A stretch of DNA of 64,000 nucleotides from an uncultured virus (IMG/VR IMGVR_UViG_2061766007_000116) (Duplodnaviria; Heunggongvirae; Uroviricota; Caudoviricetes). Under the pieces are notes generated by a model, which saw only the letters and a list, made by a program, of their open reading frames with translations, did no database searches and had not been told where the DNA came from. The position numbers were made by a program, and so were the translations under genes. The stretch's first letter is position 1. The number at the start of each line of letters is the position of its first letter. Of this stretch, positions 8,153-63,930 are shown one piece after another. The DNA lies in the IMG/VR virus record IMGVR_UViG_2061766007_000116. One strand, written 5' to 3'.

Positions 8153-8275
8153 TTACACTCGGATCTCGGTGCCTTTCTGGAGCTTGAAGGTCAGGTCCCC
8201 ATCCCGGTTTACGGTGACGCAGTCAATTACGTCCAGCCAGAGCCGCTCGTCGAAGTGTTCCAGTGGCTGGTCCAA
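8153..8275 (-). pseudogene. Remnant 3' end (40 codons plus stop) of a serine recombinase gene
   Basis: Translates to LDQPLEHFDERLWLDVIDCVTVNRDGDLTFKLQKGTEIRV*, 31/40 identical to the C-terminus of 12467-14053. Confidence 0.9.
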
Positions 8276-9035: not shown

Positions 9036-9477
9036 TGTCTTCCCTCCATTCGGAAATGGTCATGTTTTGCCCATCATTTCCCACAAAGTACAGTTCATCA
9101 AATCCTTCACTGCGGCTTGGAAGCTCCAGCCGATTTGAAGTCATCGCAATTGCCTTAGCCGGGATTCTTTCTTTCCCATCCCTTGAATTATTACGGGCAA
9201 TGCACTCCTGAAGCCGGGATTGCATGAAGTACCCCACAATGTGGTAACCCTCAGCTTTTGCGGGAAGAATGTACCGGGCACGGTCTTCGCGGGTTGGGTT
9301 GGTGTTATCTACTACATAGCTTTCGCTATTATTGTGGCATTCTGCGATCAGCCGCTTTTCGTTATTCCGGGTTTTCAGCGTGTCAAGGTTGACGCGCCTG
9401 ACCTCCGGGAGAAACTGGCGGCAGAATACTGATTTGCCGCTACCCTGAATGCCAATCATTATGTACGCTGTTTTCAT
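9025..9477 (-). CDS. P-loop kinase, AAA_33 / polynucleotide kinase-like
   Basis: Walker A GIQGSGKS, VVDNTN motif typical of PNK kinase domains, lid motif CIARN. Confidence 0.85.
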   Translation of the reverse strand: MKTAYIMIGIQGSGKSVFCRQFLPEVRRVNLDTLKTRNNEKRLIAECHNNSESYVVDNTNPTREDRARYILPAKAEGYHIVGYFMQSRLQECIARNNSRDGKERIPAKAIAMTSNRLELPSRSEGFDELYFVGNDGQNMTISEWREDSEL

Positions 9478-10451
9478 TGTTTTTCATTCTTTGCATCAAA
9501 GCAGGTATACGCAAAACGCTTGCTGAGAGCTTTGATTTCATCATATTTCGCTAAAGATTCCGTCCAGTTCACGGGTATAGTATTTGCGCCATACCACATG
9601 CCTGCCAGAGCTCCTGCAACGGCAGCGGTAGTATCTGTATCCCGGCCGAGGTTGACCGCCTTGATTACGCAGTCAGCATAGCTCTCCGTGGTAAGGACAC
9701 ACCATACCGCAGCCTGCAAGGTATCAATCACATAGCCGCCACTCTTGATATCGTCCTCAGTCCACGACTGGATGTTAAGCATAGGCTCAAATTCACCATA
9801 CAAGTCCTTATAGTCCGGGTGGTCACGGTAATAGAACAAAGCTGGAATCAATCCACCCATGACGGCATTTGGCAAATAGCCACCCGAGCACATCTGGAAA
9901 ATAATGCTGCAATAGATCCCGCAAGCCATCTCGCAGCGCCTGTTCGCATGGGTACAGTCTGATGCCTTATGGATGATTTCTGCAGTGCGTTTGTCCAGTT
10001 GCCAGTTTCCATACTTACCTTCAAGGTAAAAAGCAAGCGGCATGATGCGCATCAACGAGCCATTCCCGCATGCGTTATCAGAATCGTCACCGCATTCAAG
10101 CGCAGGCTTACCGCGCAGGTGTTTGCTAATCGCACGGTGGGTTGCCCCTCCGATATCGAATACATCCCCACGGGCTGTGTAGTTACCGTTTTCCATCCAG
10201 TCAGCAAAACGGGCCATTTGATCTTCATAGTCAATGCCTTTCTCGATGAGAGAATGGATCATGCACAAGGTCATGCTGGTGTCATCAGACCATGTTCCTG
10301 CAGGCTGGCCGTGANNNNNNNNNNNNNNNNNNNNNNNNNNNNGGCTGGTGAACTCGACAGGGACACCCAAGGCATCGGCGGTTGCGAAGCCGAGTATCGC
10401 GCCTTCTATAAATTTGAAAAAATACTTAGGATCACCGTACATATCAATCAC
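9474..10451 (-). CDS. ADP-ribosylglycohydrolase (DraG/ARH family)
   Basis: DALGVPVEF, WSDDT, GNGSLMR, DTDT metal-binding motifs. Confidence 0.93.
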   Translation of the reverse strand: MIDMYGDPKYFFKFIEGAILGFATADALGVPVEFTSXXXXXXXXXXHGQPAGTWSDDTSMTLCMIHSLIEKGIDYEDQMARFADWMENGNYTARGDVFDIGGATHRAISKHLRGKPALECGDDSDNACGNGSLMRIMPLAFYLEGKYGNWQLDKRTAEIIHKASDCTHANRRCEMACGIYCSIIFQMCSGGYLPNAVMGGLIPALFYYRDHPDYKDLYGEFEPMLNIQSWTEDDIKSGGYVIDTLQAAVWCVLTTESYADCVIKAVNLGRDTDTTAAVAGALAGMWYGANTIPVNWTESLAKYDEIKALSKRFAYTCFDAKNEKQ

Positions 10452-12466: not shown

Positions 12467-14053
12467 TCAAACCTGTACTTCCTTGCCATTCTGGAACTTG
12501 AAGGTCAGGCTCCCGTCCCGGTGGACCGTCACGCGGTCGATCACATCCAGCCAGAGCCTGTCATCGAAATGCTCCAGCGGCTGGTCAAGCTCCCGCAGCC
12601 TGAACATGAATCCCCCGATAGCGTCAGCTTTTGCCATGCGCTCGGACCGTTTCTTCTCCAGCTCGGCAATCCGGCGCTGCGCCCGGTCGTACCGTTCCAC
12701 CAGCCCGTTGTACCGGGCATTGTATTCATCTTGATCCTGCGCCGTGGTGCTGTTTTCATCGACGCACAGTTTGATCAGCCCGGCCACCACTTCCAGCTCT
12801 TGGAGCAGTTCCTGCGTCTCCCGGTCGATCTCGGAGCAATCGGTGAACAGTGCCTGCATCAGCCTGCAATCTTCGATCAGGCGTTCCCGATCAGGGAGGA
12901 GATGGTTAAAGGCTTCGAGGAAGCTGTCCTTGATGGTTTCTTCCGAAAGGTGCGGGGTGCCGCATTTGCATTCGCCCTTGAACTTGTTATTGCACTGCCA
13001 GATCACCCGGCGATACTTGCTGGTGCTGTTCCAGACCTTTGAGCCAAGGTAGTGGCCGCAATCCCCGCAGACCAGCCGGGAGGAGAATATGCTTTTCCCG
13101 CTGTAGCTCCGGCCCAGCGCTTTTCTCCGGGCCATCTCTTCCTGTACCCGCTGGAAAAGGAGCGGGTCAATGATTGCCGGATGGCTGTTTTCCACATAGT
13201 ATTGCGGGACTTCGCCCTCGTTGACCTTCATTTTCTTCTTCAGGAAATCTACGGTGAACTTCTTTTGCAACCGGGCGTCTCCCTTATATTTCTCGTTGGT
13301 CAGGATACTCTCAACAGTCCTGTCGCCCCATAGGGTTTTCCCAGCAGGCGTTGGGATGCCTTCTGCAGTGAGCTGTTTGGCGATGGCCGTCGTGGTCTTG
13401 CCGCTCATGAATAGATCGTAGATGTAGCGGACCGTTTCTGCCTGCTCCGGCACGATCTGCGGGAGGCCGTCCGGTCCTTTTTCATAACCGAGGAAGTGTT
13501 TATACGGCATGGATACCTTGCCGTCTGCAAAGCGTTTCCGCTGGCCCCACGTGACGTTTTCCGAAATGCTGCGGCTCTCTTCCTGCGCCAGTGAGCTCAT
13601 GATGGTGAGCAGGAGCTCACCCTTTCCATCGAAGGTCCAGATGTTTTCCTTCTCGAAATAGACCTCGCAGCCGACGTCCTTGAGTTTGCGGATGGTGGTC
13701 AGGCTGTCCACGGTGTTCCGGGCGAAGCGGCTGACCGACTTCGTGACAATCAGGTCAATCTTCCCGGCAAGAGCGTCCTCGACCATCTCGTTAAAGCTGC
13801 TGCGCTTTTTGGTGCTCAAGCCGGAGATCCCATCGTCGGGATAGACCTTTACGAACTCCCAATCAGCGTGGGCCTTGATGTATTGCGTGTAGTAATCGAT
13901 CTGCGCATCATAGCTGGTGGCCTGCTCTTCACTATCCGTCGATACCCGCGCATACGCTGCAACCCGGCGCTTCTTCTCGGAAACAAGCGACTGCCGCGTC
14001 AGCGGATTGATCGTCGGCGGGATCATGGTCACCGACCGTACTGCTGTTGCCAT
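12467..14053 (-). CDS. Large serine recombinase (resolvase, recombinase and zinc-ribbon domains)
   Basis: AYARVST catalytic Ser, TKSVSRFARN, CGDCG...CNNK zinc ribbon. Confidence 0.95.
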   Translation of the reverse strand: MATAVRSVTMIPPTINPLTRQSLVSEKKRRVAAYARVSTDSEEQATSYDAQIDYYTQYIKAHADWEFVKVYPDDGISGLSTKKRSSFNEMVEDALAGKIDLIVTKSVSRFARNTVDSLTTIRKLKDVGCEVYFEKENIWTFDGKGELLLTIMSSLAQEESRSISENVTWGQRKRFADGKVSMPYKHFLGYEKGPDGLPQIVPEQAETVRYIYDLFMSGKTTTAIAKQLTAEGIPTPAGKTLWGDRTVESILTNEKYKGDARLQKKFTVDFLKKKMKVNEGEVPQYYVENSHPAIIDPLLFQRVQEEMARRKALGRSYSGKSIFSSRLVCGDCGHYLGSKVWNSTSKYRRVIWQCNNKFKGECKCGTPHLSEETIKDSFLEAFNHLLPDRERLIEDCRLMQALFTDCSEIDRETQELLQELEVVAGLIKLCVDENSTTAQDQDEYNARYNGLVERYDRAQRRIAELEKKRSERMAKADAIGGFMFRLRELDQPLEHFDDRLWLDVIDRVTVHRDGSLTFKFQNGKEVQV

Positions 14054-15363
14054 TATGATTTCCTCCTCTGCTTTCTCGCTCGTTCCGCTGCTGCTGCCTT
14101 CATTTCAGGCGTCCAGCTCCGGGAACGCGATACCGCTTTCCATTCTATTTCGGTGCTGTGCCCGTCCCGGAAACGGAAGCTCAGGACATGGTCCGGTCTG
14201 GACACCACCGAAAGGAGGCGGTTGCGGAAAACACACTCGTCAAAACCGTCAATCCCCAAAGCATCAGCCGCCGCCTTTTTTAGGACATCTTCCCGGATTT
14301 GAAGGCCGGGGCAGGCTGCTTTTCCTTCCGTCAGGCAGGTAGTGCAATTCCATGCGGGGCGGCTATGGTTTTTAATCCGTTTATACGTCCGACCGCATTG
14401 GGAGCAAACGATGATCCCGGTAAAGGCGCTGCGGGTAGGCTGTGACCGCTTGGCGGTAATAGCAGCGATTTCTTCAAGCCGTGCTTTTGCCGTTGCGAAA
14501 GTCTCTGCGTCAATAATCGCGGGATGCGTCCCTTCTGCGTAGAACATGGGGAGCTCCCCGCGATTTACCGTTTTCTTCTTTTCGATATGGTTGTTGTTGA
14601 AGTGCTTCCAGAGCAGCGCGTTTCCTGTGTACTTCTCGTTTGAAAGAATGCAGCGCACTTGCTGCGGCCTCCATTTCCCATTGAACACACCCGTGATGCC
14701 AGCGGCGTTCAGATGGGAGGCGATGGAATTCATGCTCTCCCCGCCGAGGAAGCGCCTGAAAATGTCCCTAACAATCTCAGCTTCCTCCGGATTAACTGTG
14801 ATTCCGGTTTTGTCAATGCTGTATCCCAGCATAAACCGCCAGTTGAGGAGCTCGCCCTGTTCAAAGCCCTTCCTGACCCGCCATTTCTGGTTCTCACTGG
14901 CCGAGCGGCTTTCTTCCTGCGCGTAGGAAGAGAGGATCGAAAGCATTAGCTCGCCGTCCACGCTCATGGTGTGTATGTTCTGCTCCTCGAAGAAAACGTC
15001 CACACCCAGCTCTTTTAGCTCACGGACCGACTCCAGCAGCGTTACCGTGTTCCGGGCAAAGCGGGAGATGCTCTTGGTAATAACCATGTCGATTTCCCCA
15101 CGGCGGCAGGCTTCGAGCATTTGCTGGAATCTGTCCCGGTTGCCCTTCGTGCCTGTCAGCGCCTCGTCCGCGTAAACCCCGCAGTATAGCCAGCCGGGGT
15201 GCTTCTGGATCAGGCTGCTGTAATAGCTTACCTGAGCTGAGAGCGAGTGGAGCATGGCGTCTTTGCCCGTGGACACTCTGGCATAGGCCGCGACCCGCTT
15301 TACATCAATGCGCCGGGGTGCCAGAAAATCAACCTTTTTAACCGTCCGTTCCATGCGTTCCAC
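14053..15363 (-). CDS. Second large serine recombinase
   Basis: AYARVST, TKSISRFARN, CSQCG zinc ribbon. Confidence 0.95.
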   Translation of the reverse strand: MERMERTVKKVDFLAPRRIDVKRVAAYARVSTGKDAMLHSLSAQVSYYSSLIQKHPGWLYCGVYADEALTGTKGNRDRFQQMLEACRRGEIDMVITKSISRFARNTVTLLESVRELKELGVDVFFEEQNIHTMSVDGELMLSILSSYAQEESRSASENQKWRVRKGFEQGELLNWRFMLGYSIDKTGITVNPEEAEIVRDIFRRFLGGESMNSIASHLNAAGITGVFNGKWRPQQVRCILSNEKYTGNALLWKHFNNNHIEKKKTVNRGELPMFYAEGTHPAIIDAETFATAKARLEEIAAITAKRSQPTRSAFTGIIVCSQCGRTYKRIKNHSRPAWNCTTCLTEGKAACPGLQIREDVLKKAAADALGIDGFDECVFRNRLLSVVSRPDHVLSFRFRDGHSTEIEWKAVSRSRSWTPEMKAAAAERARKQRRKS

Positions 15364-41408: not shown

Positions 41409-41615
41409 GACGCCTCTGCCGCTGTGGCGGTGGATCGTCTCAAGGATGGAATCCTGCTCCTCAACGCTGATGCCCATGCCGTCCAGTGCCTCCCGGATGC
41501 CGCAGTCCGGGCAGATCAGCGTGGAGTTGTCCACGCGGGAGAGTGCCGGATATCCGTGATAGGCTTTGCCGCATTTGGGGCAGACCGCAATATGCTCGAT
41601 GTTGCTTTCTTTCAT
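41406..41615 (-). CDS. Small zinc-finger protein
   Basis: CPKCG...PALSR...CPDCG. Confidence 0.75.
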   Translation of the reverse strand: MKESNIEHIAVCPKCGKAYHGYPALSRVDNSTLICPDCGIREALDGMGISVEEQDSILETIHRHSGRGV

Positions 41616-42076
41616 TTTGCCGCCTCCATGCTGTAGTTCAGTGCTTCGGTCAGGAAACTGGTATCGAAACCGAAGTCATGATATCCTTCCGCGCAGGTTT
41701 CAACGTAGGCGCGGGTAGGAATTCCAATGGGTCGGTCCTCATGCATGATGTACACAAATACCTTGCGCTTGCGGACCTTCCCGGTCTTGATCCCGGTGAA
41801 AGCGACTGTCATTTCCTTTTTGTAGTAGAAGTGTGGGTATCCCTCGTAGTGGTCAAGAGCCAGCTCATCACGCGGGGAAACTTCCCACACCGCCACAGGG
41901 ACACGCCACTCGGCAAAAGGCTCGATTGTGAGGTAGGACCCGGTCTTGGACCCTTTGAACAGGAGCCGCCATCCGGCCAGCTCGGCTGTGCCGATGATCC
42001 GGGCGGACGGGCAGCGCCAGCGCATCTGCTGGACATTCAGGTTGCTGCCGTAGGCAATGTAATAGCGTTTTTGCAT
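41612..42076 (-). CDS. Gamma-glutamylcyclotransferase family protein
   Basis: YIAYGSNL...LDHYEGYP. Confidence 0.9.
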   Translation of the reverse strand: MQKRYYIAYGSNLNVQQMRWRCPSARIIGTAELAGWRLLFKGSKTGSYLTIEPFAEWRVPVAVWEVSPRDELALDHYEGYPHFYYKKEMTVAFTGIKTGKVRKRKVFVYIMHEDRPIGIPTRAYVETCAEGYHDFGFDTSFLTEALNYSMEAAK

Positions 42077-42157
42077 ATGAAAAAACTCCTTTCCGATTTT
42101 GCCTTCTACCACCGAAAACCCGCATCAGCGGGTCCGGGGGCCTCTTGGCTGCGACCT

Positions 42158-43094
42158 TCAAGCGGCTGCTCTGCCGTTGCGGAAGGCTGCATCCCCGTCA
42201 AGGCGTCGGGTAAGGAGCTCTCTTGCTGTTTTGAATTCGTCGCCAATGAAGCCGAGGCGGAGGAGCCAAGTCCTCATGGCGTATTTGGGATTCTCGTTCT
42301 GCTGGGGTTTGGGGCTGGCGGTCTTGACCGTCTTGGCCATCTGGCTCAGTGCGAGGCAAAGCTGGATGTAGCTCTTGAGCTGTCCGGCGTGGAGGCCGTT
42401 CTGCTTGCCATCGGAAGGCTCGTCGAACTGGAAAAGCCTGAACTCGATGGTGCCTTTGGTGAAGGTGGCATGGAGGTTGAGCATGTGGTAGCGGCTGTGG
42501 TTGTAGTGCCAGCTCCTGTCGTAATCCTCGCCTTGGCTCTCGTACCAAATGTCGGCAAGCTGGCTCATCGTCCGGGGCTTGCGGCGGTTGAGGACCCGGA
42601 GGAACCGCGGGTCAACCGTCTGGCAGTAGCTGTCGATGCGGCGGCGGCTGATCGCCAGCGCGTCNNNNNNNNNNNNNCATGATGTTGGCGAGGTTGCGAA
42701 GGGTCTGCGCCGTGTGGCCGCTGGCCCCGATGTGGATGTGGACCCCGCAGCCCCGGCTGGCGTCGCTCTTGGCCCCAGCCTTGCGGAGCCTGCGGATCAG
42801 GCCCTGCAGGAGTTCCATGTCCTCGTAGCGGAGGATCGGGGTGACCAGCTCACATTTCTCATCGTCGGGGCCGAGGATGCTGCTGTCGCGCTGGAATTTC
42901 CACTCACGGTCCTGCGCGTCCCATGCGCTCCAGCTATGGTAGCCGTTGCGGCGGGNNNNNNNNNNNNNNNNNNNNNNNNNNNNNNNGGCGGTGAGCTTTG
43001 CGGCTCTCTGGCGGGTGATGCTGTTCATCTCAACCTCAACCCCGATGGTCTGCTCCTTCATTCCGGCGATCTGGCTCATTGTTTTGTCGTTCAT
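42158..43094 (-). CDS. Putative amidoligase (COOH-NH2 ligase type 2); frame broken by N gaps
   Basis: IGVEVE, DSSI, ELVTP, CGVHIH, RYHMLN, TIEFRLF. Confidence 0.88.
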
Positions 43095-43127
43095 TTTCGT
43101 AGCCTCCGTTTGTCGTTTTCCCTTTCG

Positions 43128-43222
43128 GTAGTGTATTAATCACTCTAAAACGGAGATATAGCAAGTTAATTCTGAGCCATAAAGTACACAAGAATGAGGG
43201 CTGGAAACTGTGTATTTTACGG
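43128..43222 (-). promoter_or_regulatory. Repeated promoter/palindrome unit
   Basis: Same core, CATAAAGTACACAA-N16-CTGTGTATTTTACG. Confidence 0.85.
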
Positions 43223-43227
43223 GCTAT

Positions 43228-43452
43228 TTACCCATCGATCCTTCGGCAGCGGTCAGCGCCCCACGCAACCGAAAGGCCGCAGCCGTTATCCCAATGGACC
43301 ATGATGCTGCCGATATCATCCACACCGATTACTGTGCCACGGGTCCCGATGGGCGGGGCCTGCGGGTCGTCCATTTCAATCAGCTCCACGCGGGAGCCTT
43401 TGGGATAGGCATCCCGCAGGCGCTGGAGCTGTTCAGGCCGGATCATTCGCAT
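43228..43452 (-). CDS. DUF4314 family protein
   Basis: YPKGSRVELIEMDD...GTVIGVDDIGSIMVHWDNG. Confidence 0.85.
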   Translation of the reverse strand: MRMIRPEQLQRLRDAYPKGSRVELIEMDDPQAPPIGTRGTVIGVDDIGSIMVHWDNGCGLSVAWGADRCRRIDG

Positions 43453-44247
43453 TCCTGCACCTCCCCGCCATCGGCTGCAAGCTCANNNNNNNNNNNNNNN
43501 NNNNCAGCTTCCCGCTTGGCCTTCTGTGCCGCGCTGAACTTCCGGGCGTCATCCGCATTCCTGAAGGCAGAGCTGCCGGAGAGCTTCTGGAGCAGGAGCT
43601 TCCGCTGGGCCTTGCTCTCGGCCCCGATGAAGCCCAGCCGGAGGAGGAAGCAGCGGAATGCGTACTTCTCGCTTTCGGCATCCGGCTCCTTGGCGGTGAC
43701 CCGTTTGGCTTCCTTTGCCATCGCGCACAGGGCAGCAATGAAGGCCACATAAGCCTGTGCCTCTTCGGGCTCCGGCATGCGGTCCCACCAAGGGAAGCTG
43801 ACCCGGTCATCGGCGGGNNNNNNNNNNNNNNNNNNGCGCTTTCTGGATCAGGGAGCCTTTGGCCTCCAGCAGCTTCCGCAGGTTGTCCAGCGCCAGTTCG
43901 GTGAAGCCGTCCATCGGCAGGCTGACCGTCAGGCCATCCGTGGCCGGAGCCTCGATGGGCTCCTCGGCGGGGGTGTCGGTCTCGTCGGTGTCCTCGCAGG
44001 CGAGGTTGCTGACCTGTGAAACGAAACCCTGCTGGGCGAGCACCTCGATGAGCCCTTCGGCCTGATCGCGCTCGGCAAAGGAAACCACGCCGTTGCGGTC
44101 GATGTGAAAGCCGCCCACTTCGTAGGCAAAGCCCGGTGCGCCGCAGTATTTTGCGGGGGTCATGGTGTAGCTGCTGATTGCCCCGACAAGGCGCTTGCGC
44201 TCGTCCCCGGTCACGTTGAAGTCGCAGTAGAAAGTGTTGTTTGTCAT
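43443..44247 (-). CDS. Phage 'virulence-related' protein (frame broken by N gaps)
   Basis: RKRLVGAIS...YCGAPGFAYEVG, EKYAFRCFLLRLGFIG. Confidence 0.8.
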
Positions 44248-44269
44248 GGTGAAAACCTCCTTGTTTTTG

Positions 44270-44360
44270 GTAGTGTATTAATCACTCTAAAGGCCAGAAA
44301 TAGCAAGGTTTTTCACCACCATATACTGCACAAAGATGTGGGCTGGAAACCTGTTCATAT
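44270..44360 (-). promoter_or_regulatory. Repeated promoter unit (allelic copy at 44423-44491)
   Basis: Same core, one palindrome half degenerate. Confidence 0.8.
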
Positions 44361-44498
44361 CCGACAATCAGAACTGCGGAATGACGCTGGGGTCCAGCTC
44401 ATCAAAGCTGTANNNNNNNNNNAGCCAGAAATAGCAAGGGTTTTCACCGTCATAAACTGCACAATTATGTGGGCTGGAAACCTGTTCATATCCGACAA

Positions 44499-45743
44499 TC
44501 AGAACTGCGGGATCACAGCCGGGTCCAGCTCCTCGAAACGGTAAGTCAGGCCATCGCGCTGGCAGGTAACGTGCTCGTCAGATCCAACCTGCTCAATGTA
44601 ACGCTTGACGATCACATCGCAGAACTTGGGGTCCAGCTCGATGGTGTAGCAGGAGCGGTCAGTTTGCTCACAGGCGATCAGGGTGCTGCCGCTGCCACCG
44701 AAGGGATCGACGATGAGCGTGTTGCTCATGGAGCTGTTCATTATCGGATAGGCCAGAAGCTGGATCGGCTTCATCGTGGGATGGTCAGCATTCTTCTTGG
44801 GCTTATCATATTCCCAAATCGTGGTCTCCTTGCGGCCAGCGTACCACTGGTGCTTGCCACCTTTTTTCCAACCGAAGAGCACAGGCTCATGCTGCCACTG
44901 ATATGGGGACCTGCCGAGGACCAGTGACTGTTTCTTCCAGATGCAGCAGCCGGACAAATAAAAACCCGCATCGGCAAAAGCCCTGCGGAAGTTAAGTCCT
45001 TCTGTATCTGCATGGAAAACATAGATGGATGCGTCATCGGCCATGATCGCGGCGGTGTTTTTGAAGGCCGCGAGGAGGAATTCATAGAACGCCTCATTCG
45101 CCATGTTGTCATTTTTGATCTTTCCAGCGCTGCCCTCATAGTTTACATTGTAGGGCGGGTCTGTGACGACAAGGTTGGCCTTTGTCCCGGCCATCAGGAG
45201 GCTGAAGGTCTCAGCCTTTGTGCTGTCGCCGCAGACAAGGCGGTGACGGCCCAGCGTCCACACATCGCCCAGCTTGGTGATCGGCGGCTCTTTCAGCTCG
45301 GCGTCCACGTCGAAGTTGTCGTCCTTGACTCCGTCTTTGAGTGTGTCTTTGAAGAGGTCGTCGATCTCGGTGGCATCGAAGCCCGTCAGGGAGACATCAA
45401 AAGCCGTGCCCTGCAGATCCGCAATGAGCACGGCCAGCTTGTCTTTGTCCCAATCGCCGGAGATTTTGTTCAGGGCGATGTTCAGCGCCTTTTCCTTATC
45501 CTCCGGCAGCTCCACGACCACGCACTCGACCTCGGTGATCCCCATGTCAATCAGGACCTTTAGTCGCTGGTGACCGCCGACGACGCGCCCGGTGGTCTTG
45601 TTCCAGATCACGGGTTCAACATAGCCAAATTGCTCCAGAGAGCGTTTCAGCTTTTCATACTCCGGGTCGCCGGGTTTGAGGTCCTTGCGGGGGTTGTAAT
45701 CGGCAGGGATCAGGTCGGCAGTGTTCTTTTTCTCAATGACCAT
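44499..45743 (-). CDS. ParB-domain-fused N6A/N4C DNA methyltransferase
   Basis: PADYNPR/VGGHQR ParB-like domain, TDPPYNV, HPTMKP, DPFGGSGS. Confidence 0.92.
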   Translation of the reverse strand: MVIEKKNTADLIPADYNPRKDLKPGDPEYEKLKRSLEQFGYVEPVIWNKTTGRVVGGHQRLKVLIDMGITEVECVVVELPEDKEKALNIALNKISGDWDKDKLAVLIADLQGTAFDVSLTGFDATEIDDLFKDTLKDGVKDDNFDVDAELKEPPITKLGDVWTLGRHRLVCGDSTKAETFSLLMAGTKANLVVTDPPYNVNYEGSAGKIKNDNMANEAFYEFLLAAFKNTAAIMADDASIYVFHADTEGLNFRRAFADAGFYLSGCCIWKKQSLVLGRSPYQWQHEPVLFGWKKGGKHQWYAGRKETTIWEYDKPKKNADHPTMKPIQLLAYPIMNSSMSNTLIVDPFGGSGSTLIACEQTDRSCYTIELDPKFCDVIVKRYIEQVGSDEHVTCQRDGLTYRFEELDPAVIPQF

Positions 45744-46528
45744 CACACCAGCCCCCATTCCGCAAACCTCTCGAAGCCGCCGATGTCCTTGATGAAGTTC
45801 CGGCTGATTTCGACAATATCCGCATAAGGGACGCCGCCAACGGAATCGTCACCGATGGCGCAGCAAAGCTCCACCGTTTTTCCCGTGCGCTGGGCCTCCA
45901 GCCAAGCATAGATGTTTACGCTGATGTCGGCCTTGGAGAGATCCTTCCCGTGAAGACCGCCACCCGTCACGCTGTCGGCCATGTCGGAGCCGAGCTTGCG
46001 GTTGGTAGCGCCGGAGTCCACATCCGTGCCGCCTGTCCAGTCACCGAGCGGGTTGATGATGGCATGTGGATAATCGATGCGGATTTCATCAGCCTTGGCG
46101 TTGCTCTGGCAGATGATCAGCTTTGTGCCGTCAAGAATGTACTTACCGTCGCAGCCGTATTCCTCATACAGATCACGAGCAATCTCCGATAACGCGAACT
46201 GCTCGTCAGTCACGGGGACGCCTTTGAAGATGCCGTTGTCACCGCATCGGACGGAATGGGCCTGATTCGCCGCGAGATGTGCATCCTGCGGGACTTCGAC
46301 ATAATTCGACAAAACACGCTCTCCCGCGATCCGCTGTACCGTTTTTTCGACAAAATTCGACGGGATGTGCACGGACGTTTCAGCGATGATGTTGCAGACG
46401 CCATGCCCGATGAGCACCTCCACCGCGATGCGGGGATTCTCTTCCTGCGTGTACGCATAGTCGACGAGAGCGCCTGCAATGCGGTCTGCCACCTTGTCCG
46501 GGTGGCCCGGATTCACTTTTTCGTACAT
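45743..46528 (-). CDS. metK: Compact phage S-adenosylmethionine synthetase
   Basis: EKVNPGHPDK, GDNG, DGK, GATNRKL, GGGLHGKDLSKAD. Confidence 0.88.
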   Translation of the reverse strand: MYEKVNPGHPDKVADRIAGALVDYAYTQEENPRIAVEVLIGHGVCNIIAETSVHIPSNFVEKTVQRIAGERVLSNYVEVPQDAHLAANQAHSVRCGDNGIFKGVPVTDEQFALSEIARDLYEEYGCDGKYILDGTKLIICQSNAKADEIRIDYPHAIINPLGDWTGGTDVDSGATNRKLGSDMADSVTGGGLHGKDLSKADISVNIYAWLEAQRTGKTVELCCAIGDDSVGGVPYADIVEISRNFIKDIGGFERFAEWGLV

Positions 46529-46542
46529 AGTCTCCTCCAGAT

Positions 46543-47082
46543 TTATTGTTTTCCCTTCCGGGCAGAAAGCAGGCGCTCCATCAGGTCGTCCTGTGGGCTG
46601 GCCCCATACGAGATGCTGCAGTTATCCCGGACGATCTGATAAATCTGATACCAGCACTGATTTACCTGCTTCATATAGTCGCGGCTCATGGAAACGTAAG
46701 GCGAGGCGATGGCATTGCCCGTTGTTGGGTGCCGCGCCAGATAGCCCGTTTCCGAAATGAAGAGTTCGACGCTGATCCATCTGGCCACGCTCATGGCATA
46801 CTGCTGGATGAGCTGGGGATTGACGAGATGGGCGCAGCCACAGCTCTTAAGCCAGTTCCAAGTGTCCACATAGACTTCCTCCGCACAGAAGTCTTCGCCG
46901 CCTTTTTGCGCGGCTTTCATAAAATCCTTGACCGGGGGCATGTCGCTGCCCTCCAGCTCTGCGGACACCTGCAGCACCGCCGCGCCGTCAGCCGTGCCGT
47001 TGGCAATTTTGTCCGTCAGGGCTTTGCGTTTCGGACCGCTGCCGGGGCGTGCTCCGCCGCGCATGGTGCCGTCTTTGGCCAT
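46543..47082 (-). CDS. terS: Terminase small subunit (P27 family)
   Basis: RGGARPGSGPK, HPTTGNAIASPYV, DDLMERLL. Confidence 0.88.
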   Translation of the reverse strand: MAKDGTMRGGARPGSGPKRKALTDKIANGTADGAAVLQVSAELEGSDMPPVKDFMKAAQKGGEDFCAEEVYVDTWNWLKSCGCAHLVNPQLIQQYAMSVARWISVELFISETGYLARHPTTGNAIASPYVSMSRDYMKQVNQCWYQIYQIVRDNCSISYGASPQDDLMERLLSARKGKQ

Positions 47083-47094
47083 TGCTTCACCTCC

Positions 47095-47192
47095 GAGGGG
47101 TTAATACCCCGTTTGAATACGGTTTTTTGCGTAAAAGACCCCGCGCCGTTGCCCGGAAACCGGGGCCGTAGAGATTATGACCGCCCTACCCG
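47095..47192. other. Probable cos/packaging-site region
   Basis: Non-coding stretch between HNH and terS with the dyad GGGGTTAATACCCC. Position is typical of cos phages, but the exact cut site cannot be determined. Confidence 0.4.
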
Positions 47193-47221
47193 TTGCACTT
47201 CTGGGACCCCCGTGGTATAAT
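47193..47221 (+). promoter_or_regulatory. Sigma-A promoter with extended -10
   Basis: TTGCAC-N17-TATAAT with TG upstream of the -10. Confidence 0.8.
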
Positions 47222-47226
47222 CGGAT

Positions 47227-47325
47227 CACCATAAAGAGTGCGCGAGAGACAAGCTCGATGACCGCACGACAACCTACCGCATGGCGGCAAGGTGCCAAGG
47301 CTTGAACGATGGGTCGATACCGATG
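47227..47325 (+). ncRNA. SAM-I clan riboswitch aptamer lacking P4 (SAM-I or SAM-I/IV type)
   Basis: P1 CCAU/AUGG, AAGAG junction, P2 GUGCG/CGCAC, GAGAGACAAGCUCGAUGA kink-turn arm, P3 CAACC/AAGGUGC, pseudoknot CAAGC/GCUUG. Confidence 0.82.
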
Positions 47326-47329
47326 CTTG

Positions 47330-47360
47330 AAGACCCGTCAGACGATGGGTCTTTTCTTTA
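47330..47360 (+). terminator. Riboswitch expression-platform terminator
   Basis: AAGACCCGTC-AGAC-GATGGGTCTT 10-bp stem followed by TTCTTT. Confidence 0.85.
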
Positions 47361-47387
47361 TGGAATAAGGCTTGGAGGTTTTATCCT

Positions 47388-47726
47388 ATGGAAGAAAAGA
47401 CCCTGCGTATCGGCGGCGGGAAAACAGAAGCGTTCCTCGTGTGCGATAAGTCTCTGGAAAAATGTGATGCCCCGTTCTTCAAATGGCTGCGTAATGAGGG
47501 CTTCACCTTTGGCGGCTATCATGGAAACTACGGTTGCTGGTGGGCGCACATTAATATCACGCGCAAGCAGTATGCATATGGAATGCCGGGAGTCGGCCTT
47601 GCCCAGCCGATTGGAAACCACGCCATAACCATCGATGAATTTCAAACCATATACGCCATCTACAAAAAGTACGATGGGAAAGGGCTGTTCGTTTTCAACA
47701 ATGAACGTTTCGACTACGATGCCTAA
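47388..47726 (+). CDS. Hypothetical protein downstream of the SAM riboswitch
   Basis: GGAGG RBS, 112 aa, aromatic/Gly-rich, no family recognised. Confidence 0.75.
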   Translation: MEEKTLRIGGGKTEAFLVCDKSLEKCDAPFFKWLRNEGFTFGGYHGNYGCWWAHINITRKQYAYGMPGVGLAQPIGNHAITIDEFQTIYAIYKKYDGKGLFVFNNERFDYDA

Positions 47727-48079
47727 TGCGTGTGGCGGTCTCCCATCTCCAGATGGATCTTGTTGTGGCAGGAACGGCAGAGGGACATGAGGTTTGCCCG
47801 GTCGTGCGTCCCACCACGAGACACGGGGATGATGTGGTGGACCTCTTCCATCAGGGTCACACGTCCTTCCTCCAGACACTTCTCGCAGAGCGGGTGCTCC
47901 GCAGCATAACGGTCGCGGATGCGTTTCCATGCACGGCCATACTTCTTGTTGACTTCCGGGCTGCGTTCGTACCTGTCGTACTGCTGCCGTGCAGCTTTCT
48001 CATGCTCCGGGCAGTACTGTTTATCTGTCAGATTTGGGCATCCGGGGTACGCGCACGGGTGCTTCGGTTTTCTTGGCAT
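47723..48079 (-). CDS. Terminase-associated HNH endonuclease
   Basis: CEKC...EVHHI...GGTH...NLMSLCRSCH. Confidence 0.92.
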   Translation of the reverse strand: MPRKPKHPCAYPGCPNLTDKQYCPEHEKAARQQYDRYERSPEVNKKYGRAWKRIRDRYAAEHPLCEKCLEEGRVTLMEEVHHIIPVSRGGTHDRANLMSLCRSCHNKIHLEMGDRHTH

Positions 48080-48167
48080 TGGGATAGTCCTTCCTGATCT
48101 TCTCAAGGAGCCAGAAACGGAGGATGTACCAGCACTGCTCAAGGTAAGTGACTTTGCGGTAGCTCAT
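48021..48167 (-). CDS. Small hypothetical protein (48 aa, not in the ORF track)
   Basis: GGAGGTG RBS then MSYRKVTYLEQCWYILRFWLL... Confidence 0.5.
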   Translation of the reverse strand: MSYRKVTYLEQCWYILRFWLLEKIRKDYPNAKKTEAPVRVPRMPKSDR

Positions 48168-48272
48168 TTGGCCACCTCCGATCCGGGTATGAAAAAGTTG
48201 ATCTTTTTCAAATTGAATTATTTTTGCCGCTGCCTTATGATGTTTTCAGAGACCAACGAGGAGGACAGTGAC

Positions 48273-48710
48273 ATGAAAGACACATTCAGCATTGACGATA
48301 TGGCTCTGATTACCGGGCTCTCGACCCGTACCATTCGCAGCTATATTGCGGACGGTTTTCTGGAAGGCGACAAAAGCAGCGGGGCATGGCAGTTCACATC
48401 TGAACAAGTGGACGCCTTTATGCAAAACAAAGCTGTCCAGCCGACCCTGCGCTCCAAGAAGAACACTATTGTTTATGATTTTTTAGGAGCGCCGCACAAA
48501 GAACAGGATATGATGTGTGTGGTGCTGGACCTGCCGTCTGATCAGGCGAGCCGCGCATCCACGCTCCTCTGCAAGTACATGTGCGAGATTGAAGCGAAGG
48601 CAGAGCTGCGCTTTGCCTCAGACCGTCTTGGCAAGACGGTCCGGGTCATACTGAGCGGGAGCGATTCGGATGTTATGGACCTGCTGGCCCGTTACTACAA
48701 AGAAAGATAA
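48273..48710 (+). CDS. HTH (MerR/excisionase-like) DNA-binding protein
   Basis: FSIDDMALITGLSTRTIRSYIADGFL, GAGGAGG RBS. Confidence 0.75.
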   Translation: MKDTFSIDDMALITGLSTRTIRSYIADGFLEGDKSSGAWQFTSEQVDAFMQNKAVQPTLRSKKNTIVYDFLGAPHKEQDMMCVVLDLPSDQASRASTLLCKYMCEIEAKAELRFASDRLGKTVRVILSGSDSDVMDLLARYYKER

Positions 48711-48724
48711 AACCGTCAGAAGCA

Positions 48725-63090: not shown

Positions 63091-63120
63091 TTGGCCATAA
63101 CAAGAAAAGGACGGTGCGCT

Positions 63121-63930
63121 ATGAAAGCAAAAGTCATCCCTATCAGTGCCGCGCAGGCACAGGGCTATAACGCCGCAAAAGAAAAAGAACACAACATCAT
63201 CGGCGCACGGATTGCTGAAGCCCGGAAAAAGAGCGGTATGACCCTGACGGATCTGAGTGCCTGCCTTGAAGGGCTGGGAGTGAAGGCATCACGCGGTGCG
63301 GCCAGCAAGTGGGAAACGGGAGAAACCGTGCCGAATGCATACCAGCTTGTCGCTGTGTTTAATGCTCTTGGCATGGGAGACCGCCTTTCCTATTTCATGG
63401 AGAACTATGTCCCGCCTCTGAATGACGCTGGCCTCCGCAAGGTGGAGGAGTATAAGGCAGACCTGATAGCCAGCGGGAAATACAGACCCGCACCGAGGAT
63501 TGCCAGCGTCATCCGGTATATCGATATGCCAGTCAGCAATCTGGCGGTCTCTGCCGGACTGGGCGCGTTCCTCGATGAGGGGAACTTCGAGATGATCAGC
63601 TTCCCGGAGGACAAGGTCCCCGATGGAGCAGACTTCGGCATCCGGGTATCCGGTGATTCGATGGAGCCCGTGTATCATGACGGCCAGATCGTATGGGTGC
63701 AGGAGTGCGAACAGATCGGCATCGGGCAGGTCGGCGTTTTCGTTTATGATAACGAAGGCTTCCTCAAGATCTACTCCGAGCAGGAGCCGGATGAGGAGAT
63801 CGCGGAGGAGTTTACTGACAGCTATGGGGTTGTCCATCCCCAGCCTGTGCTGGAATCGTACAATCCGAAATACGCACCGAAAGTGCTCCAGCCCAGCGCG
63901 GTTTTTCAAATCGTCGGGCGGGTCCTGTAA
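63121..63930 (+). CDS. XRE HTH plus S24 peptidase (LexA/CI-like) repressor
   Basis: HTH ASKWETGETVP, Ala-Gly cleavage site VSAGLG, SGDSMEP Ser and LK Lys. Confidence 0.9.
   Translation: MKAKVIPISAAQAQGYNAAKEKEHNIIGARIAEARKKSGMTLTDLSACLEGLGVKASRGAASKWETGETVPNAYQLVAVFNALGMGDRLSYFMENYVPPLNDAGLRKVEEYKADLIASGKYRPAPRIASVIRYIDMPVSNLAVSAGLGAFLDEGNFEMISFPEDKVPDGADFGIRVSGDSMEPVYHDGQIVWVQECEQIGIGQVGVFVYDNEGFLKIYSEQEPDEEIAEEFTDSYGVVHPQPVLESYNPKYAPKVLQPSAVFQIVGRVL

What the first reader, a model, noticed from the sequence alone, without database searches (positions are those of the whole stretch)
47193..47726. Prophage-encoded SAM riboswitch controlling an orphan gene beside the phage SAM synthetase-methylase module
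Seen: a consensus promoter (TTGCAC-N17-TATAAT, 47193-47221) precedes a sequence that folds like a SAM-I clan aptamer without P4. The elements are P1 CCAU/AUGG, AAGAG, P2 GUGCG/CGCAC, a kink-turn arm GAGAGACAAGCUCGAUGA, P3 CAACC/GGUGC and a pseudoknot CAAGC/GCUUG. The P1 3' strand GATGGGTC (47308-47315) recurs as the terminator 3' arm, so it can instead pair with the terminator 5' arm GACCCGTC. That forms a complete antiterminator/terminator OFF switch ahead of an unrecognised 112-aa ORF. Known: SAM-I riboswitches normally control sulfur/methionine genes, and some lytic phages (T3 SAM lyase) deplete SAM to disable restriction-modification and BREX. Inference: the ORF is expressed only when SAM falls. 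It may be a SAM-depletion-triggered defence or abortive effector, or it may couple the phage methylase/MetK module to SAM supply. The riboswitch points away from metK, so it does not control metK in the usual way. Two pairs flanking the binding pocket are mismatched (AUA for AUC, GACAACC for GGCAACC), so altered affinity or decay is possible.
Basis: partly seen in the sequence, partly recalled or inferred. Interest (0 to 1): 0.88.

Follow-up and report, generated by a model that had tools for sequence, protein, structure and literature searches.

The report
SAM-gated gene cassette in a prophage
A gut-bacterial prophage carries a self-contained 540-base insert in which a genuine SAM-sensing RNA switch should shut off a small, widespread protein of unknown function when the methyl donor SAM is plentiful, which matters because phages were thought to use riboswitches only rarely.

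Summary
Window 47226-47329 (+) is the window's only Rfam hit: SAM riboswitch RF00162, 49.6 bits against a gathering score of 44.4. P1 is CCAU/AUGG, and P2, P3 and the pseudoknot covary. The promoter, antiterminator and terminator are conserved, giving SAM-OFF logic.

The 112-aa ORF is not an orphan. It has 191 homologues with no Pfam, PHROG, NCBIfam or fold match. The riboswitch precedes it in 20 of 38 genome loci.

The cassette (47187-47726) is a 540-bp insertion relative to a phage whose TerS is 96% identical. It is absent from all 80 related viral contigs examined, so it is a moron.

The same P4-less riboswitch type precedes metK, which supports SAM as the ligand. It also precedes other unknown small proteins in phages, repeatedly beside DNA methyltransferase genes.

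P4-less natural SAM-I variants are already in print (PMC12714719). The protein's function is unknown, and the defence idea is untested.

The parts
47187..47726 (+). Whole cassette: promoter, riboswitch, terminator, RBS and ORF. It is a 540-bp insertion relative to related phage L212.
   Evidence: blastn of the window against L212 (TerS 96% identical): 46000-47186 and 47727-48196 align at 84-87%. The 540 nt between them replace 14 nt of L212. The HNH-TerS gap is 115-242 nt in 73 of the 75 related viral contigs in which both genes were located, and 640 nt here.
47193..47221 (+). Sigma-70-type promoter: TTGCAC, 17 nt, TGgTATAAT (extended -10). The start site is predicted near A47228.
   Evidence: Read directly from the sequence. 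Not listed by the scan because the -35 matches only 3 of 6. A -10-like box stands at the same distance in 117 of 129 relatives. The start site is inferred, not mapped.
47229..47312 (+). SAM-I-class aptamer without P4. P1 47229-32/47309-12; J1/2 AAAGA 47233-37; P2a 47238-42/47263-67; kink-turn region 47243-45 and 47257-62; P2b 47246-48/47254-56; P3 47268-47296; pseudoknot 47250-53 with 47301-04.
   Evidence: RF00162 at 49.6 bits. Structure counted on 130 aptamers: 94.7% of cells paired, 17 of 27 pairs changed on both sides, 0 of 500 shuffles as good.
47308..47339 (+). Antiterminator: GAUGGGUC (47308-15, which contains the P1 3' strand) pairs with GACCCGUC (47332-39).
   Evidence: Duplex of -15.4 kcal/mol, z -4.2. 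It is the minimum-energy fold of the nascent and of the full leader. In 23 family-A leaders 94.6% of cells are paired, against 25-50% when the partner is slid.
47329..47359 (+). Intrinsic terminator: stem 47329-39/47344-54, loop AGAC, tail UUUUCUUU.
   Evidence: Found by the terminator scan; -16.6 kcal/mol. 96.1% of cells paired in 23 leaders. A terminator was found in 121 of 133 related leaders.
47355..47363 (+). Post-terminator box UCUUUAUGG. It is complementary to the 5' strand CCAUAAAGA (47229-37) and, together with the U-tract, to the start-codon region (47385-47397).
   Evidence: Duplex with the 5' strand -11.8 kcal/mol, z -3.2. A comparable box (E <= -8) occurs in 93 of 120 leaders, against 12 of 120 with the target reversed. 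89.9% and 93.8% of cells are paired in the two alternative pairings. Its role is inferred.
47374..47378 (+). Shine-Dalgarno GGAGG, 9 nt before the ATG.
   Evidence: Read directly from the sequence.
47388..47726 (+). 112-aa protein of an uncharacterised family ('family A').
   Evidence: 191 homologues with E <= 1e-3. 13 invariant columns in 34 aligned sequences. No Pfam, PHROG, NCBIfam, PDB-sequence or fold match. AlphaFold2 mean pLDDT 80.5.
47723..48142 (-). HNH endonuclease, tail to tail with the ORF (4-nt overlap).
   Evidence: PF01844 at E 2.5e-15 and phrog_144 at 1.4e-35.
46543..47082 (-). Terminase small subunit, divergent from the cassette.
   Evidence: phrog_83 at E 6.6e-29 and PF05119.
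45743..46528 (-). Short MetK-like protein (261 aa).
   Evidence: Only the PF00438 N-terminal domain is found, E 9.6e-13; phrog_1569 at 2.6e-66.
44499..45758 (-). ParB-N-domain plus N6/N4 DNA methyltransferase.
   Evidence: PF01555 at E 1.2e-26 and phrog_498 at 1.5e-188.

Best explanation
A 540-bp moron cassette (47187-47726) is inserted between the HNH and small-terminase genes of a prophage of a gut or rumen Clostridia bacterium. The taxon is inferred from relatives labelled Oscillospiraceae, Ruminococcaceae and similar. The cassette carries its own promoter, a SAM-I-class riboswitch of the natural P4-less subtype, an intrinsic terminator and a 112-aa gene.

Mechanism. Steps marked S are shown by sequence or comparison. 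Steps marked I are inferred.

1. Transcription starts about 1 nt before P1 (I).
2. When SAM is bound, the 4-bp P1 (CCAU/AUGG) and the core hold GAUGGGUC. The terminator 47329-47354 then forms and the transcript ends in the U-tract (S for the competing pairings, I for ligand dependence).
3. When SAM is scarce, GAUGGGUC pairs with GACCCGUC as an antiterminator, the polymerase reads on, and the protein is made (I).
4. A conserved box after the terminator can pair either with the freed 5' strand or with the start-codon region. This may add a translational layer of control (I, weak).

The protein belongs to a widespread uncharacterised family. Its job is not known. My best guess, at roughly 1 in 5, is that it acts in the SAM and DNA-methylation economy, for example by protecting under-methylated DNA from restriction or by tuning methylation when SAM runs short. 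The basis is that, in phages, this kind of cassette sits again and again beside DNA methyltransferase genes.
For: RNA identity:
- RF00162 scores 49.6 bits against a gathering score of 44.4.
- Homologous hits above the gathering score occur in 16 genome loci, 3 viral loci and 8 further viral loci.
- On 130 of 133 distinct aptamers, 94.7% of cells are paired against 85.4% when shuffled. 17 of 27 pairs change on both sides, including 3 of the 4 pseudoknot pairs. None of 500 shuffles matched this.
- The nucleotides I recall as SAM contacts are invariant or nearly so: A6, U7, G11, the A-A of GCAAC, the U-G of GGUGC, and A-U in the P1 3' strand.

Ligand:
- The same P4-less type precedes full-length metK (4 loci), a SAM hydroxide adenosyltransferase, and transporters.
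- P4-less SAM aptamers are reported to function (PMC12714719, passages read).

OFF logic:
- A terminator was found in 121 of 133 leaders.
- The antiterminator duplex is <= -8 kcal/mol in 102 of those 121, and in 94 of them at most 5% of shuffles do as well.
- In 23 family-A leaders the terminator is 96.1% paired and the antiterminator 94.6% paired. Each has 3 pairs changed on both sides.

Moron status:
- The cassette is an indel relative to L212.
- None of 80 TerS-related viral contigs holds the ORF. 73 of 75 have an HNH-TerS gap of 115-242 nt.

Prophage:
- PHROG hits run from a CI-like repressor at 63 kb to serine integrases at 12-15 kb.

Real gene:
- 191 homologues, and the riboswitch is upstream in 20 of 38 genome loci.

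Link to methylation:
- A DNA methyltransferase lies next to the cassette in the window, in L012, L046, L048, L050 and L053, and in Ruminococcus phage NatCom_28274.
- Type I hsdR or hsdM, or an LlaJI-type restriction endonuclease, lies next to it in 4 of 40 metagenome loci. Two of those 4 are near-identical to each other.
Against: - Nothing here shows SAM binding, termination or expression. The RNA-library contigs laid on the locus were uninformative.
- P1 has only 4 pairs. The CM score is only 5 bits above threshold, and three clear homologues fall below it at 41.8-43.7 bits.
- PMC12714719 states that SAM affinity falls as P4 shortens.
- The window's A.C mismatch next to the binding pocket is the minority form, in 16 of 130.
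- Most genome loci that hold the cassette are not in recognisable phage or methylase contexts. 18 of 38 family-A loci lack the riboswitch upstream.
- In the unconstrained fold of the full leader, the start codon is sequestered even when the antiterminator is formed. 'Low SAM = protein made' may therefore be incomplete.
- The neighbourhood link to methylation and restriction is a minority pattern with no statistical test behind it.
Confidence: 0.8

Rival explanations
1. The protein is an ordinary member of the host SAM/methionine-starvation regulon, such as a small metabolic or regulatory protein of sulfur or one-carbon metabolism. The phage picked it up together with its leader as an auxiliary gene. 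Its position beside methylases is a coincidence of the moron hot spot.
For: Most riboswitch-plus-family-A loci in genomes lie among unrelated chromosomal genes. The same riboswitch type controls metK, transporters and a SAM_HAT gene.
Against: The protein matches no metabolic domain, fold or family. Its fused forms carry only TPR or Sel1 repeats or a second copy of the same domain. At least four unrelated small-protein families share the same leader. In none of the family-A loci annotated does a recognisable methionine or cysteine gene lie beside it.
Confidence: 0.25
2. One reading: the protein is a defence, superinfection-exclusion or abortive-infection effector. It is released when an invading phage (SAM lyase type) drains SAM.
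For: The OFF logic fits. Some chromosomal copies lie near Schlafen-like, HEPN, ParE, Macro and ADP-ribosylglycohydrolase genes. A fixed leader with swappable small cargo resembles a hot spot of conflict genes.
Against: PADLOC gave only one sub-threshold row for this protein (E 0.0053) and nothing for 14 other cargo proteins. The fold shows no toxin-like features. Transcription-level induction is slow for a response to an infecting lytic phage. My literature searches found no precedent.
Confidence: 0.1
3. The main output is the read-through RNA, not the protein. At low SAM, transcription from the cassette runs convergently into the HNH gene and against the late operon that must cross the cassette to reach TerS, MetK-like and the methylase. 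In family-B phages it runs straight into the DNA methyltransferase gene. The effect would be antisense or collision control.
For: There is a tail-to-tail overlap and no strong terminator after the ORF. The only candidate is a weak 5-bp hairpin at 47743-47756. The cargo converges on, and overlaps, a DNA methyltransferase in L048, L050, L053 and L177. A SAM-I riboswitch that drives an antisense RNA is known in Clostridium acetobutylicum (PMC2258182, passage read).
Against: The proteins are strongly conserved. They keep the leader in chromosomal loci where the next gene is co-directional: 20 of the 35 metagenome loci with a called downstream neighbour. This reading can therefore be at most an added effect.
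Confidence: 0.12
4. The aptamer is decayed, or it has changed ligand (for example to SAH or another adenosyl compound), so the element no longer reports SAM.
For: P4 is missing, P1 has 4 bp, an A.C mismatch sits beside the pocket, and the CM score is borderline.
Against: All these features except the A.C mismatch are shared by the whole class, including the leaders of metK. The A.C form recurs in 16 of 130 aptamers, in front of different genes. The pairs covary, which decay would not preserve.
Confidence: 0.05

Closest known systems
SAM-I (S-box) riboswitch, Rfam RF00162, transcriptional OFF switches of Firmicutes such as the metK, metI and yitJ leaders
   Same: It scores above the family threshold. 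P1, P2 with its kink-turn-type internal loop, P3 and the pseudoknot between the P2 loop and J3/4 are all present. Core nucleotides are conserved. The P1 3' strand is shared with an antiterminator that competes with a terminator.
   Different: It has no P4 and a 4-bp P1 that starts at the predicted transcript 5' end. It controls a protein of no known family inside a phage rather than a sulfur or methionine gene. It has an extra conserved box after the terminator.
Natural P4-less or short-P4 SAM-I variants noted in the Rfam alignment (PMC12714719; passages read)
   Same: P4 is deleted within an otherwise SAM-I core. The paper says such aptamers can function, with affinity falling as P4 shortens.
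   Different: The paper points to a group of Actinomycetota. The sequences here come from gut and rumen Firmicutes and their phages.
SAM-IV and SAM-I/IV riboswitches (same clan, CL00012)
   Same: They share a SAM-I-like binding core and lack a P4 inside the junction (from my own knowledge of these classes and from PMC5473149, passage read).
   Different: By my recollection, those classes have a replacement hairpin 3' of P1 that pseudoknots with the P3 loop, and SAM-I/IV lacks the P2 kink-turn. Here the P2 internal loop and the SAM-I pseudoknot are kept. The stretch after P1 is not conserved apart from the antiterminator. cmscan kept RF00162 as the best clan member.
Riboswitches known in phages: c-di-GMP-I in C. 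difficile prophages and glutamine riboswitches in marine phages
   Same: These are metabolite-sensing leaders carried by a phage genome (PMC5473149, PMC7699646 and PMC9004378, passages read).
   Different: The ligand class differs. PMC5473149 concludes that phages rarely use riboswitches. Here one pattern scan found 11 viral contigs, and one named phage genome carries the element (PV036439.1).
Phage morons (PMC3594210; abstract in the search listing only)
   Same: It is an independent transcription unit with its own promoter, on the strand opposite to the phage genes. It is present in some related phages and absent from others.
   Different: No terminator of its own was found after the gene. 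Expression is gated by a metabolite-sensing RNA.
SAM-I riboswitch-driven antisense RNA of the Clostridium acetobutylicum ubiG-mccBA operon
   Same: A SAM-OFF riboswitch points against a convergent gene or operon (PMC2258182, passage read).
   Different: Here a conserved protein-coding gene follows the switch. Any antisense effect is only a possibility.

Membership tests
SAM-I riboswitch (RF00162) | Covariance-model score at or above the curated gathering score | tested here: met
   49.6 bits against 44.4, E 2.3e-8 over 64 kb. Relatives score 41.8-63.7 bits.
SAM-I riboswitch (RF00162) | Four-way junction with helices P1-P4 | tested here: not met
   P4 is absent. Relatives' hits delete the 18 P4 model positions, and the alignment runs from J3/4 straight into the P1 3' strand. 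The P4 drawn by cmscan in the window (AACGAU/GUCGAU with a 2-nt loop) is not conserved. P4-less natural members are accepted in the literature (PMC12714719), so I file it as a P4-less subtype.
SAM-I riboswitch (RF00162) | Pseudoknot between the P2 loop and J3/4 | tested here: met
   Columns 27-30 with 81-84 are 99.4% paired. The pair types covary: AU:95/GC:34 at one position and GC:95/CG:32/UA:1 at the next.
SAM-I riboswitch (RF00162) | Kink-turn-type internal loop in P2 (tandem G.A) | tested here: inconclusive
   The GA and UGA motifs on the two sides of the loop are conserved in 130 sequences. Non-canonical pairs cannot be tested with these tools.
SAM-I riboswitch (RF00162) | Conserved ligand-contacting nucleotides | tested here: met
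   A6, U7, G11, U68, G69, A84 and U85 (numbering from 47226) are invariant, and A46 and A47 are at least 90% conserved. Which positions contact SAM is recalled from the published SAM-I structure, not from any call.
SAM-I riboswitch (RF00162) | Binds SAM and discriminates against SAH | not testable with these tools
   Indirect only: the same subtype precedes metK.
Transcriptional OFF riboswitch | Mutually exclusive P1/antiterminator and antiterminator/terminator pairings followed by a U-tract | tested here: met
Phage moron | Own promoter; a discrete insertion between conserved phage genes; absent from close relatives | tested here: met
   Promoter. It is a 540-bp indel relative to L212. It is absent from 80 of 80 TerS-related viral contigs.
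Phage moron | Own terminator after the cargo gene | tested here: inconclusive
   The only candidate is a weak 5-bp hairpin at 47743-47756, inside the HNH gene.
Known anti-phage defence protein families (PADLOC) | Significant match to a defence-system profile | tested here: not met
   The only row for this protein is E 0.0053 over 30 residues. There was none for 14 other cargo proteins.

The most novel reading that the evidence does not exclude
Gut phages and their Firmicute hosts may share a family of 'methyl-donor checkpoint' cassettes. A compact promoter plus P4-less SAM riboswitch would release interchangeable small proteins (family A here, family B in Ruminococcus phage NatCom_28274, and others) only when SAM is too low for DNA methylation. 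These proteins would then protect under-methylated DNA from restriction or throttle the neighbouring methyltransferase. That would be a metabolite-gated class of anti-restriction or restriction-alleviation genes. It would also overturn the view that phages rarely use riboswitches.
Probability: 0.12. Interest if true: 0.85.

Novelty: new variant of a known kind. Interest (0 to 1): 0.62.

Why it matters
A survey of riboswitch distribution concluded that phages rarely use metabolite riboswitches (PMC5473149, passage read). Here one short DNA pattern found the same SAM-riboswitch leader in several places:

- 11 viral contigs;
- a named Ruminococcus phage, where its 5' part is mis-annotated as a 'hypothetical protein' CDS;
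- more than 120 metagenome contigs.

Half of the called downstream genes (69 of 139) belong to two small protein families with no known relatives. That count is biased, because the pattern was designed from family-A leaders.

The riboswitch supplies a ready hypothesis for these dark-matter proteins: they are wanted when SAM is scarce. It also supplies a simple handle for experiments. The repeated position beside phage DNA methyltransferases, and the short MetK-like gene here, point to phage management of the methyl donor, which is a live topic in restriction, BREX and counter-defence.

If the proteins turn out to be ordinary, the finding still adds a clean example of a metabolite-gated moron and a compact natural SAM sensor of about 85 nt.

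Tried and rejected
- **Whole genome.** None is held for this window, so host SAM riboswitches could not be compared.
- **Expression.** Only assembled contigs of RNA libraries were available. Most matched just the conserved aptamer core of other organisms. The one contig that bridges the terminator also contains promoter sequence. This says nothing about transcription, start or termination.
- **Protein function, all blank or chance-level.**
  - PDB sequence profile: best E 0.88.
  - Foldseek against PDB: best E 1.5.
  - VIA-align wide: best Z 2.9, an antitoxin chain, 62 residues aligned at rmsd 3.3, which is not meaningful.
  - tblastn against 50,697 phage records: no match.
  - ESM Atlas: only unnamed clusters at 0.81 or below.
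  - Pfam and NCBIfam on all 34 aligned members: scattered hits at E >= 0.005.
  - PADLOC: one sub-threshold row.
- **Relation of family A to family B.** hhalign gave 14% probability over 20 columns around the shared FL..A..EGFTFG motif. This is unresolved.
- **Fused forms.** Only TPR or Sel1 repeats, helical extensions or tandem copies were found. They give no enzymatic clue.
- **The cmscan P4 and P1 in the window.** Rejected in favour of the P4-less fold, because no relative keeps them.
- **Forced-antiterminator fold.** My constraint was one base out of register, so I do not use that energy. The unconstrained folds of the same call show the correct pairing.
- **Other clan models.** cmscan reports only the best clan member, so separate SAM-IV and SAM-I/IV scores were not seen.
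- **Literature.** Eight searches found no paper on a SAM riboswitch in a phage or on this protein family. Subscription journals are not covered. No supplementary files were opened.
- **Earlier notes of this scan**. One note describes the same kind of cassette in another genome. It is a lead, not independent evidence.
Full report
**1. The observation**

- Promoter: TTGCAC (47193-47198), a 17-nt spacer and TATAAT (47216-47221). The consensus scan missed it because the -35 matches only 3 of 6 positions. The -10 is perfect and is preceded by TGg, an extended -10.
- Rfam: cmscan of the whole window gives a single hit at gathering threshold. It is RF00162 (SAM riboswitch) at 47226-47329 on the + strand, 49.6 bits against 44.4, E 2.3e-8. 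A permissive scan of 47150-47420 gave nothing else of note.
- Terminator: the scan tool finds it at 47329-47354.
- Fold: the leader 47222-47362 folds better than all but 1 of 200 shuffles, z -3.16.

**2. Which fold is right**

In this one sequence cmscan drew a P4 (AACGAU/GUCGAU with a 2-nt loop) and took GAUGCUUG (47322-47329) as the P1 3' strand, with 3 of 8 P1 pairs non-canonical.

- Their RF00162 hits span about 87 nt, with the 18 P4 model positions deleted.
- I collected 133 distinct aptamers of this type and aligned 130 of them. I left out L030, L119 and L171 because of long P3 inserts.
- In that alignment J3/4 runs straight into GAUGG.

Counting a P4-less structure on the alignment gave the following:

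| Measure | Result |
|---|---|
| Cells forming a standard pair | 94.7% (85.4% when shuffled; 30-37% when the partner is slid) |
| Pairs changed on both sides | 17 of 27 |
| Shuffles as good | 0 of 500 |
| P2a | 98.8% paired; all 5 pairs covary |
| Pseudoknot (window 47250-53 with 47301-04) | 99.4% paired; 3 of 4 pairs covary |
| Four core P1 pairs | never unpaired; one sequence (L043) swaps to UUAU/AUAA with a 7-bp P1 |

One caveat applies. The sequences were gathered with a pattern that covers the 3' third of the aptamer, so conservation there is partly by selection. The covarying 5' partners were not selected.

**3. The two 'mismatches'**

- AUA in place of AUC at the inner end of P1 is present in all 130 aptamers.
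- The window's GACAACC...GGUGCC form has a G-C pair followed by A.C, where most sequences have A-U followed by G-C. It recurs in 16-17 of 130, in front of different genes.

Neither is a sign of decay.

**4. Expression platform**

- GAUGGGUC (47308-15) contains the P1 3' strand and is repeated as the terminator 3' arm (47344-51). Either copy can pair with GACCCGUC (47332-39).
- In the window the terminator is -16.6 kcal/mol and the antiterminator duplex -15.4 kcal/mol, z -4.2. The antiterminator is the minimum-energy fold of the nascent RNA up to 47341.
- Among 133 distinct leaders a terminator was found in 121. In 102 of those the antiterminator duplex is <= -8 kcal/mol, and in 94 at most 5% of shuffles do as well.
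- In an alignment of 23 of 25 family-A leaders (two near-duplicates dropped), the terminator is 96.1% paired and the antiterminator 94.6% paired. Slid controls give 22-59%. Each helix has 3 pairs changed on both sides.

This is the classic S-box OFF arrangement.

The promoter belongs to the unit. 117 of 129 leaders have a -10-like hexamer ending 3-12 nt before P1 (73 of them at 7 nt), and 68 carry the TG. The transcript should therefore begin about one base before P1. This is inferred; nothing here maps it.

**5. Is the ligand SAM?**

No tool here can show binding. The indirect evidence is as follows.

- The same P4-less leader stands in front of full-length metK (L060, L095, L119, L143), a SAM hydroxide adenosyltransferase, ECF and MFS transporters and an AI-2E transporter. 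The metK leaders L060, L095 and L119 score 46.9-52.9 bits.
- The positions I recall as SAM contacts are invariant or nearly so.
- PMC12714719 (passages read) states that some natural SAM-I sequences lack P4, that such aptamers can function, and that affinity falls as P4 shortens.

The P4-less architecture is therefore not new in itself.

**6. The gene**

- ORF 47388-47726 has a GGAGG 9 nt upstream.
- It has 191 homologues at E <= 1e-3, all unnamed or 'hypothetical', from Clostridia-type sources.
- 34 of them align with 13 invariant columns.
- There is no Pfam, PHROG, NCBIfam, PDB-sequence, Foldseek, VIA-align, Atlas or PADLOC match of any weight.
- The AlphaFold2 model is a small alpha/beta domain: mean pLDDT 80.5, pTM 0.71.
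- Longer relatives fuse the domain to TPR or Sel1 repeats, to helical extensions or to a second copy.

**7. Is the riboswitch link conserved?**

| Set of loci encoding a relative | Riboswitch upstream on the same strand |
|---|---|
| 38 genome loci: above gathering score | 16 |
| Just below, 41.8-43.7 bits, E <= 4.4e-6 | 3 |
| Recognisable by alignment only (L040) | 1 |
| **Total** | **20 of 38** |
| Viral contigs with upstream sequence | 3 of 3 |

The other 18 genome loci are 10 from Bacteroidales, 2 from Chloroflexi and 6 others. They include L025, where the riboswitch follows the gene and precedes the next one.

**8. Prophage and moron**

PHROG hits identify a prophage, with all genes on the minus strand:

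- CI-like repressor at 63091-63930;
- a replication module;
- HNH, TerS, TerL, portal, protease and major capsid protein;
- tape measure and tail genes;
- two serine integrases at 12467-15363.

The cassette is on the plus strand. A scan with TerS returned the best 80 of 166 related viral contigs.

- In the 75 where I located both HNH and TerS, the gap is 115-242 nt in 73 and 1155 nt in 2.
- None of the 80 holds the ORF.
- The closest, L212 (TerS 96%, HNH 93% identical), aligns with the window at 46000-47186 and 47727-48196. The 540 nt between these two blocks replace 14 nt of L212.

The cassette runs from just before the -35 box to the ORF's stop codon. It brings no clear terminator of its own, and its end overlaps the HNH stop by 4 nt.

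**9. The wider class**

- A pattern for the junction from P3 through J3/4 into P1 found 11 viral contigs, of which 3 were already known. All 8 new ones hold RF00162 above threshold.
- From 153 pattern hits I called 139 downstream ORFs with a simple SD-plus-start rule, so some short ones are probably miscalls.

The ORFs cluster as follows (names):

| Cluster | Members |
|---|---|
| Family A | 42 |
| 'Family B', about 100 aa (MRTxKEL...EGFTFGDG) | 27 |
| N-formylglutamate-amidohydrolase-family proteins | 8 |
| PriA | 5 |
| MetK | 4 |
| ADP-ribosylglycohydrolases | 3 |
| Many unknown singletons | remainder |

The pattern came from family-A leaders, so these proportions are biased.

In the curated phage collection, blastn found the leader in 2 of 50,697 records. 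In Ruminococcus phage NatCom_28274 (PV036439.1) it scores 59.9 bits and precedes a 98-aa family-B gene. A 'hypothetical protein' CDS is annotated over the 5' part of the riboswitch.

**10. Neighbourhood**

In phage-type loci the cassette keeps turning up beside DNA methyltransferases. Often an amidoligase (phrog_2443) and a gamma-glutamyl cyclotransferase (phrog_2520) are also present.

- Window: methylase 44499-45758, amidoligase pieces 43443-44247, GGCT 41612-42112.
- L012.
- L046, L048, L050, L053 and L177.

In L048, L050, L053 and L177 the cargo gene converges on, and overlaps, the methyltransferase gene.

Among 40 metagenome loci with a small cargo, 4 have a Type I hsdR or hsdM, or an LlaJI-type endonuclease, next door. 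L062 and L131 are near-identical, so these are 3 independent cases.

Most chromosomal loci show unrelated neighbours. Some have Macro, ADP-ribosylglycohydrolase, ParE, HEPN or Schlafen-like genes. I ran no enrichment test, so this is a lead only.

**11. A possible second layer of control**

After the terminator lies a conserved box, UCUUUAUGG at 47355-63.

- It is the reverse complement of the 5' strand CCAUAAAGA (47229-37): -11.8 kcal/mol, z -3.2. A comparable duplex (<= -8) exists in 93 of 120 leaders, against 12 of 120 with the target reversed.
- It follows the 5' strand when that changes: CCUAUAAAGAG with CUCUUUAUAGG in L049, and AUCUUAUAAAG with UUUUAUGAGAU in L043.
- Within family A it is simply conserved: 89.9% paired with no double changes.
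- The same box plus the U-tract can instead pair with the start-codon region and the first codons (AUGGAAGAAAAG): 93.8% paired, with one pair switching AU:17/GC:4.
- In the unconstrained fold of the full leader this second pairing wins.

A relay is conceivable. When SAM is absent, the free 5' strand would capture the box and free the start codon. This is inference only.

**12. Verdict**

The RNA is a real, P4-less member of the SAM-I class wired as an OFF switch. With its promoter and a conserved gene of unknown function it forms a mobile cassette that this prophage acquired as a moron.

- Known already: the riboswitch class, P4-less variants, and riboswitches in a few phages (PMC5473149, PMC7699646, PMC9004378; passages read).
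- Not found in print in my eight searches: a SAM riboswitch used by phages, its recurrent place beside phage methyltransferases, and the cargo families.

The protein's role remains open.

Noticed in passing
window 47355-47363 with 47229-47237 and 47385-47397: A conserved post-terminator box can pair either with the aptamer's 5' strand or, together with the U-tract, with the start-codon region. This may be a translational relay added to the transcriptional switch.
   Followed up: partly
L048, L049, L050, L053, L177 (PV036439.1 44219-44515) and about 20 metagenome loci: A second uncharacterised family of about 100 aa (MRTxKEL...EGFTFGDG, 'family B') follows the same riboswitch type. It shares only a short FL..A..EGFTFG motif with family A (hhalign probability 14%).
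   Followed up: partly
window 41612-45758; L048, L050, L053, L177: A recurrent phage accessory module of DNA methyltransferase, amidoligase (phrog_2443) and gamma-glutamyl cyclotransferase (phrog_2520) lies around the cassette. In the window it also includes a short MetK-like gene. Its chemistry is unknown.
   Followed up: no
window 48197-48723: A second insertion relative to phage L212 (527 nt). It holds a + strand gene with a weak excisionase/HTH regulator match (phrog_66) and a promoter-like site at 48213-48241. It is probably another moron.
   Followed up: partly
L177 = PV036439.1 44010-44114: The deposited annotation of Ruminococcus phage NatCom_28274 places a 34-aa 'hypothetical protein' CDS over the 5' part of the riboswitch.
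   Followed up: yes
L055 and L104: An IS1595/ISXO2-type transposase gene sits directly after the riboswitch and terminator, as if an IS had displaced or interrupted the cargo.
   Followed up: no
L024 1322-1399: A skipping-rope RNA (RF02924, 58.1 bits) lies about 190 nt upstream of the SAM riboswitch in an Erysipelotrichaceae contig.
   Followed up: no
window 8223-10451: Just beyond the serine integrases lie an ADP-ribosylglycohydrolase (phrog_6572) and a Thg1-like tRNA-His guanylyltransferase (phrog_4717). ADP-ribosylglycohydrolases are also direct cargo of this riboswitch type elsewhere (L082, L110, L157).
   Followed up: no
L025 4363-4449: Here a family-A gene has no riboswitch upstream, but one follows it and precedes a 139-aa SseB-like gene. 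An ADP-ribosylglycohydrolase-SseB fusion and a Macro-domain gene lie just upstream.
   Followed up: no
window about 42.7-43.8 kb and 51.2-51.4 kb: Several ORF translations contain runs of X, meaning stretches of the window read N (masked). The amidoligase-like gene appears in pieces partly for this reason.
   Followed up: no
L246 about 2097 (+): One of the 80 TerS-related viral contigs has a SAM-aptamer-like motif about 1 kb downstream of TerS rather than in the HNH-TerS gap.
   Followed up: no
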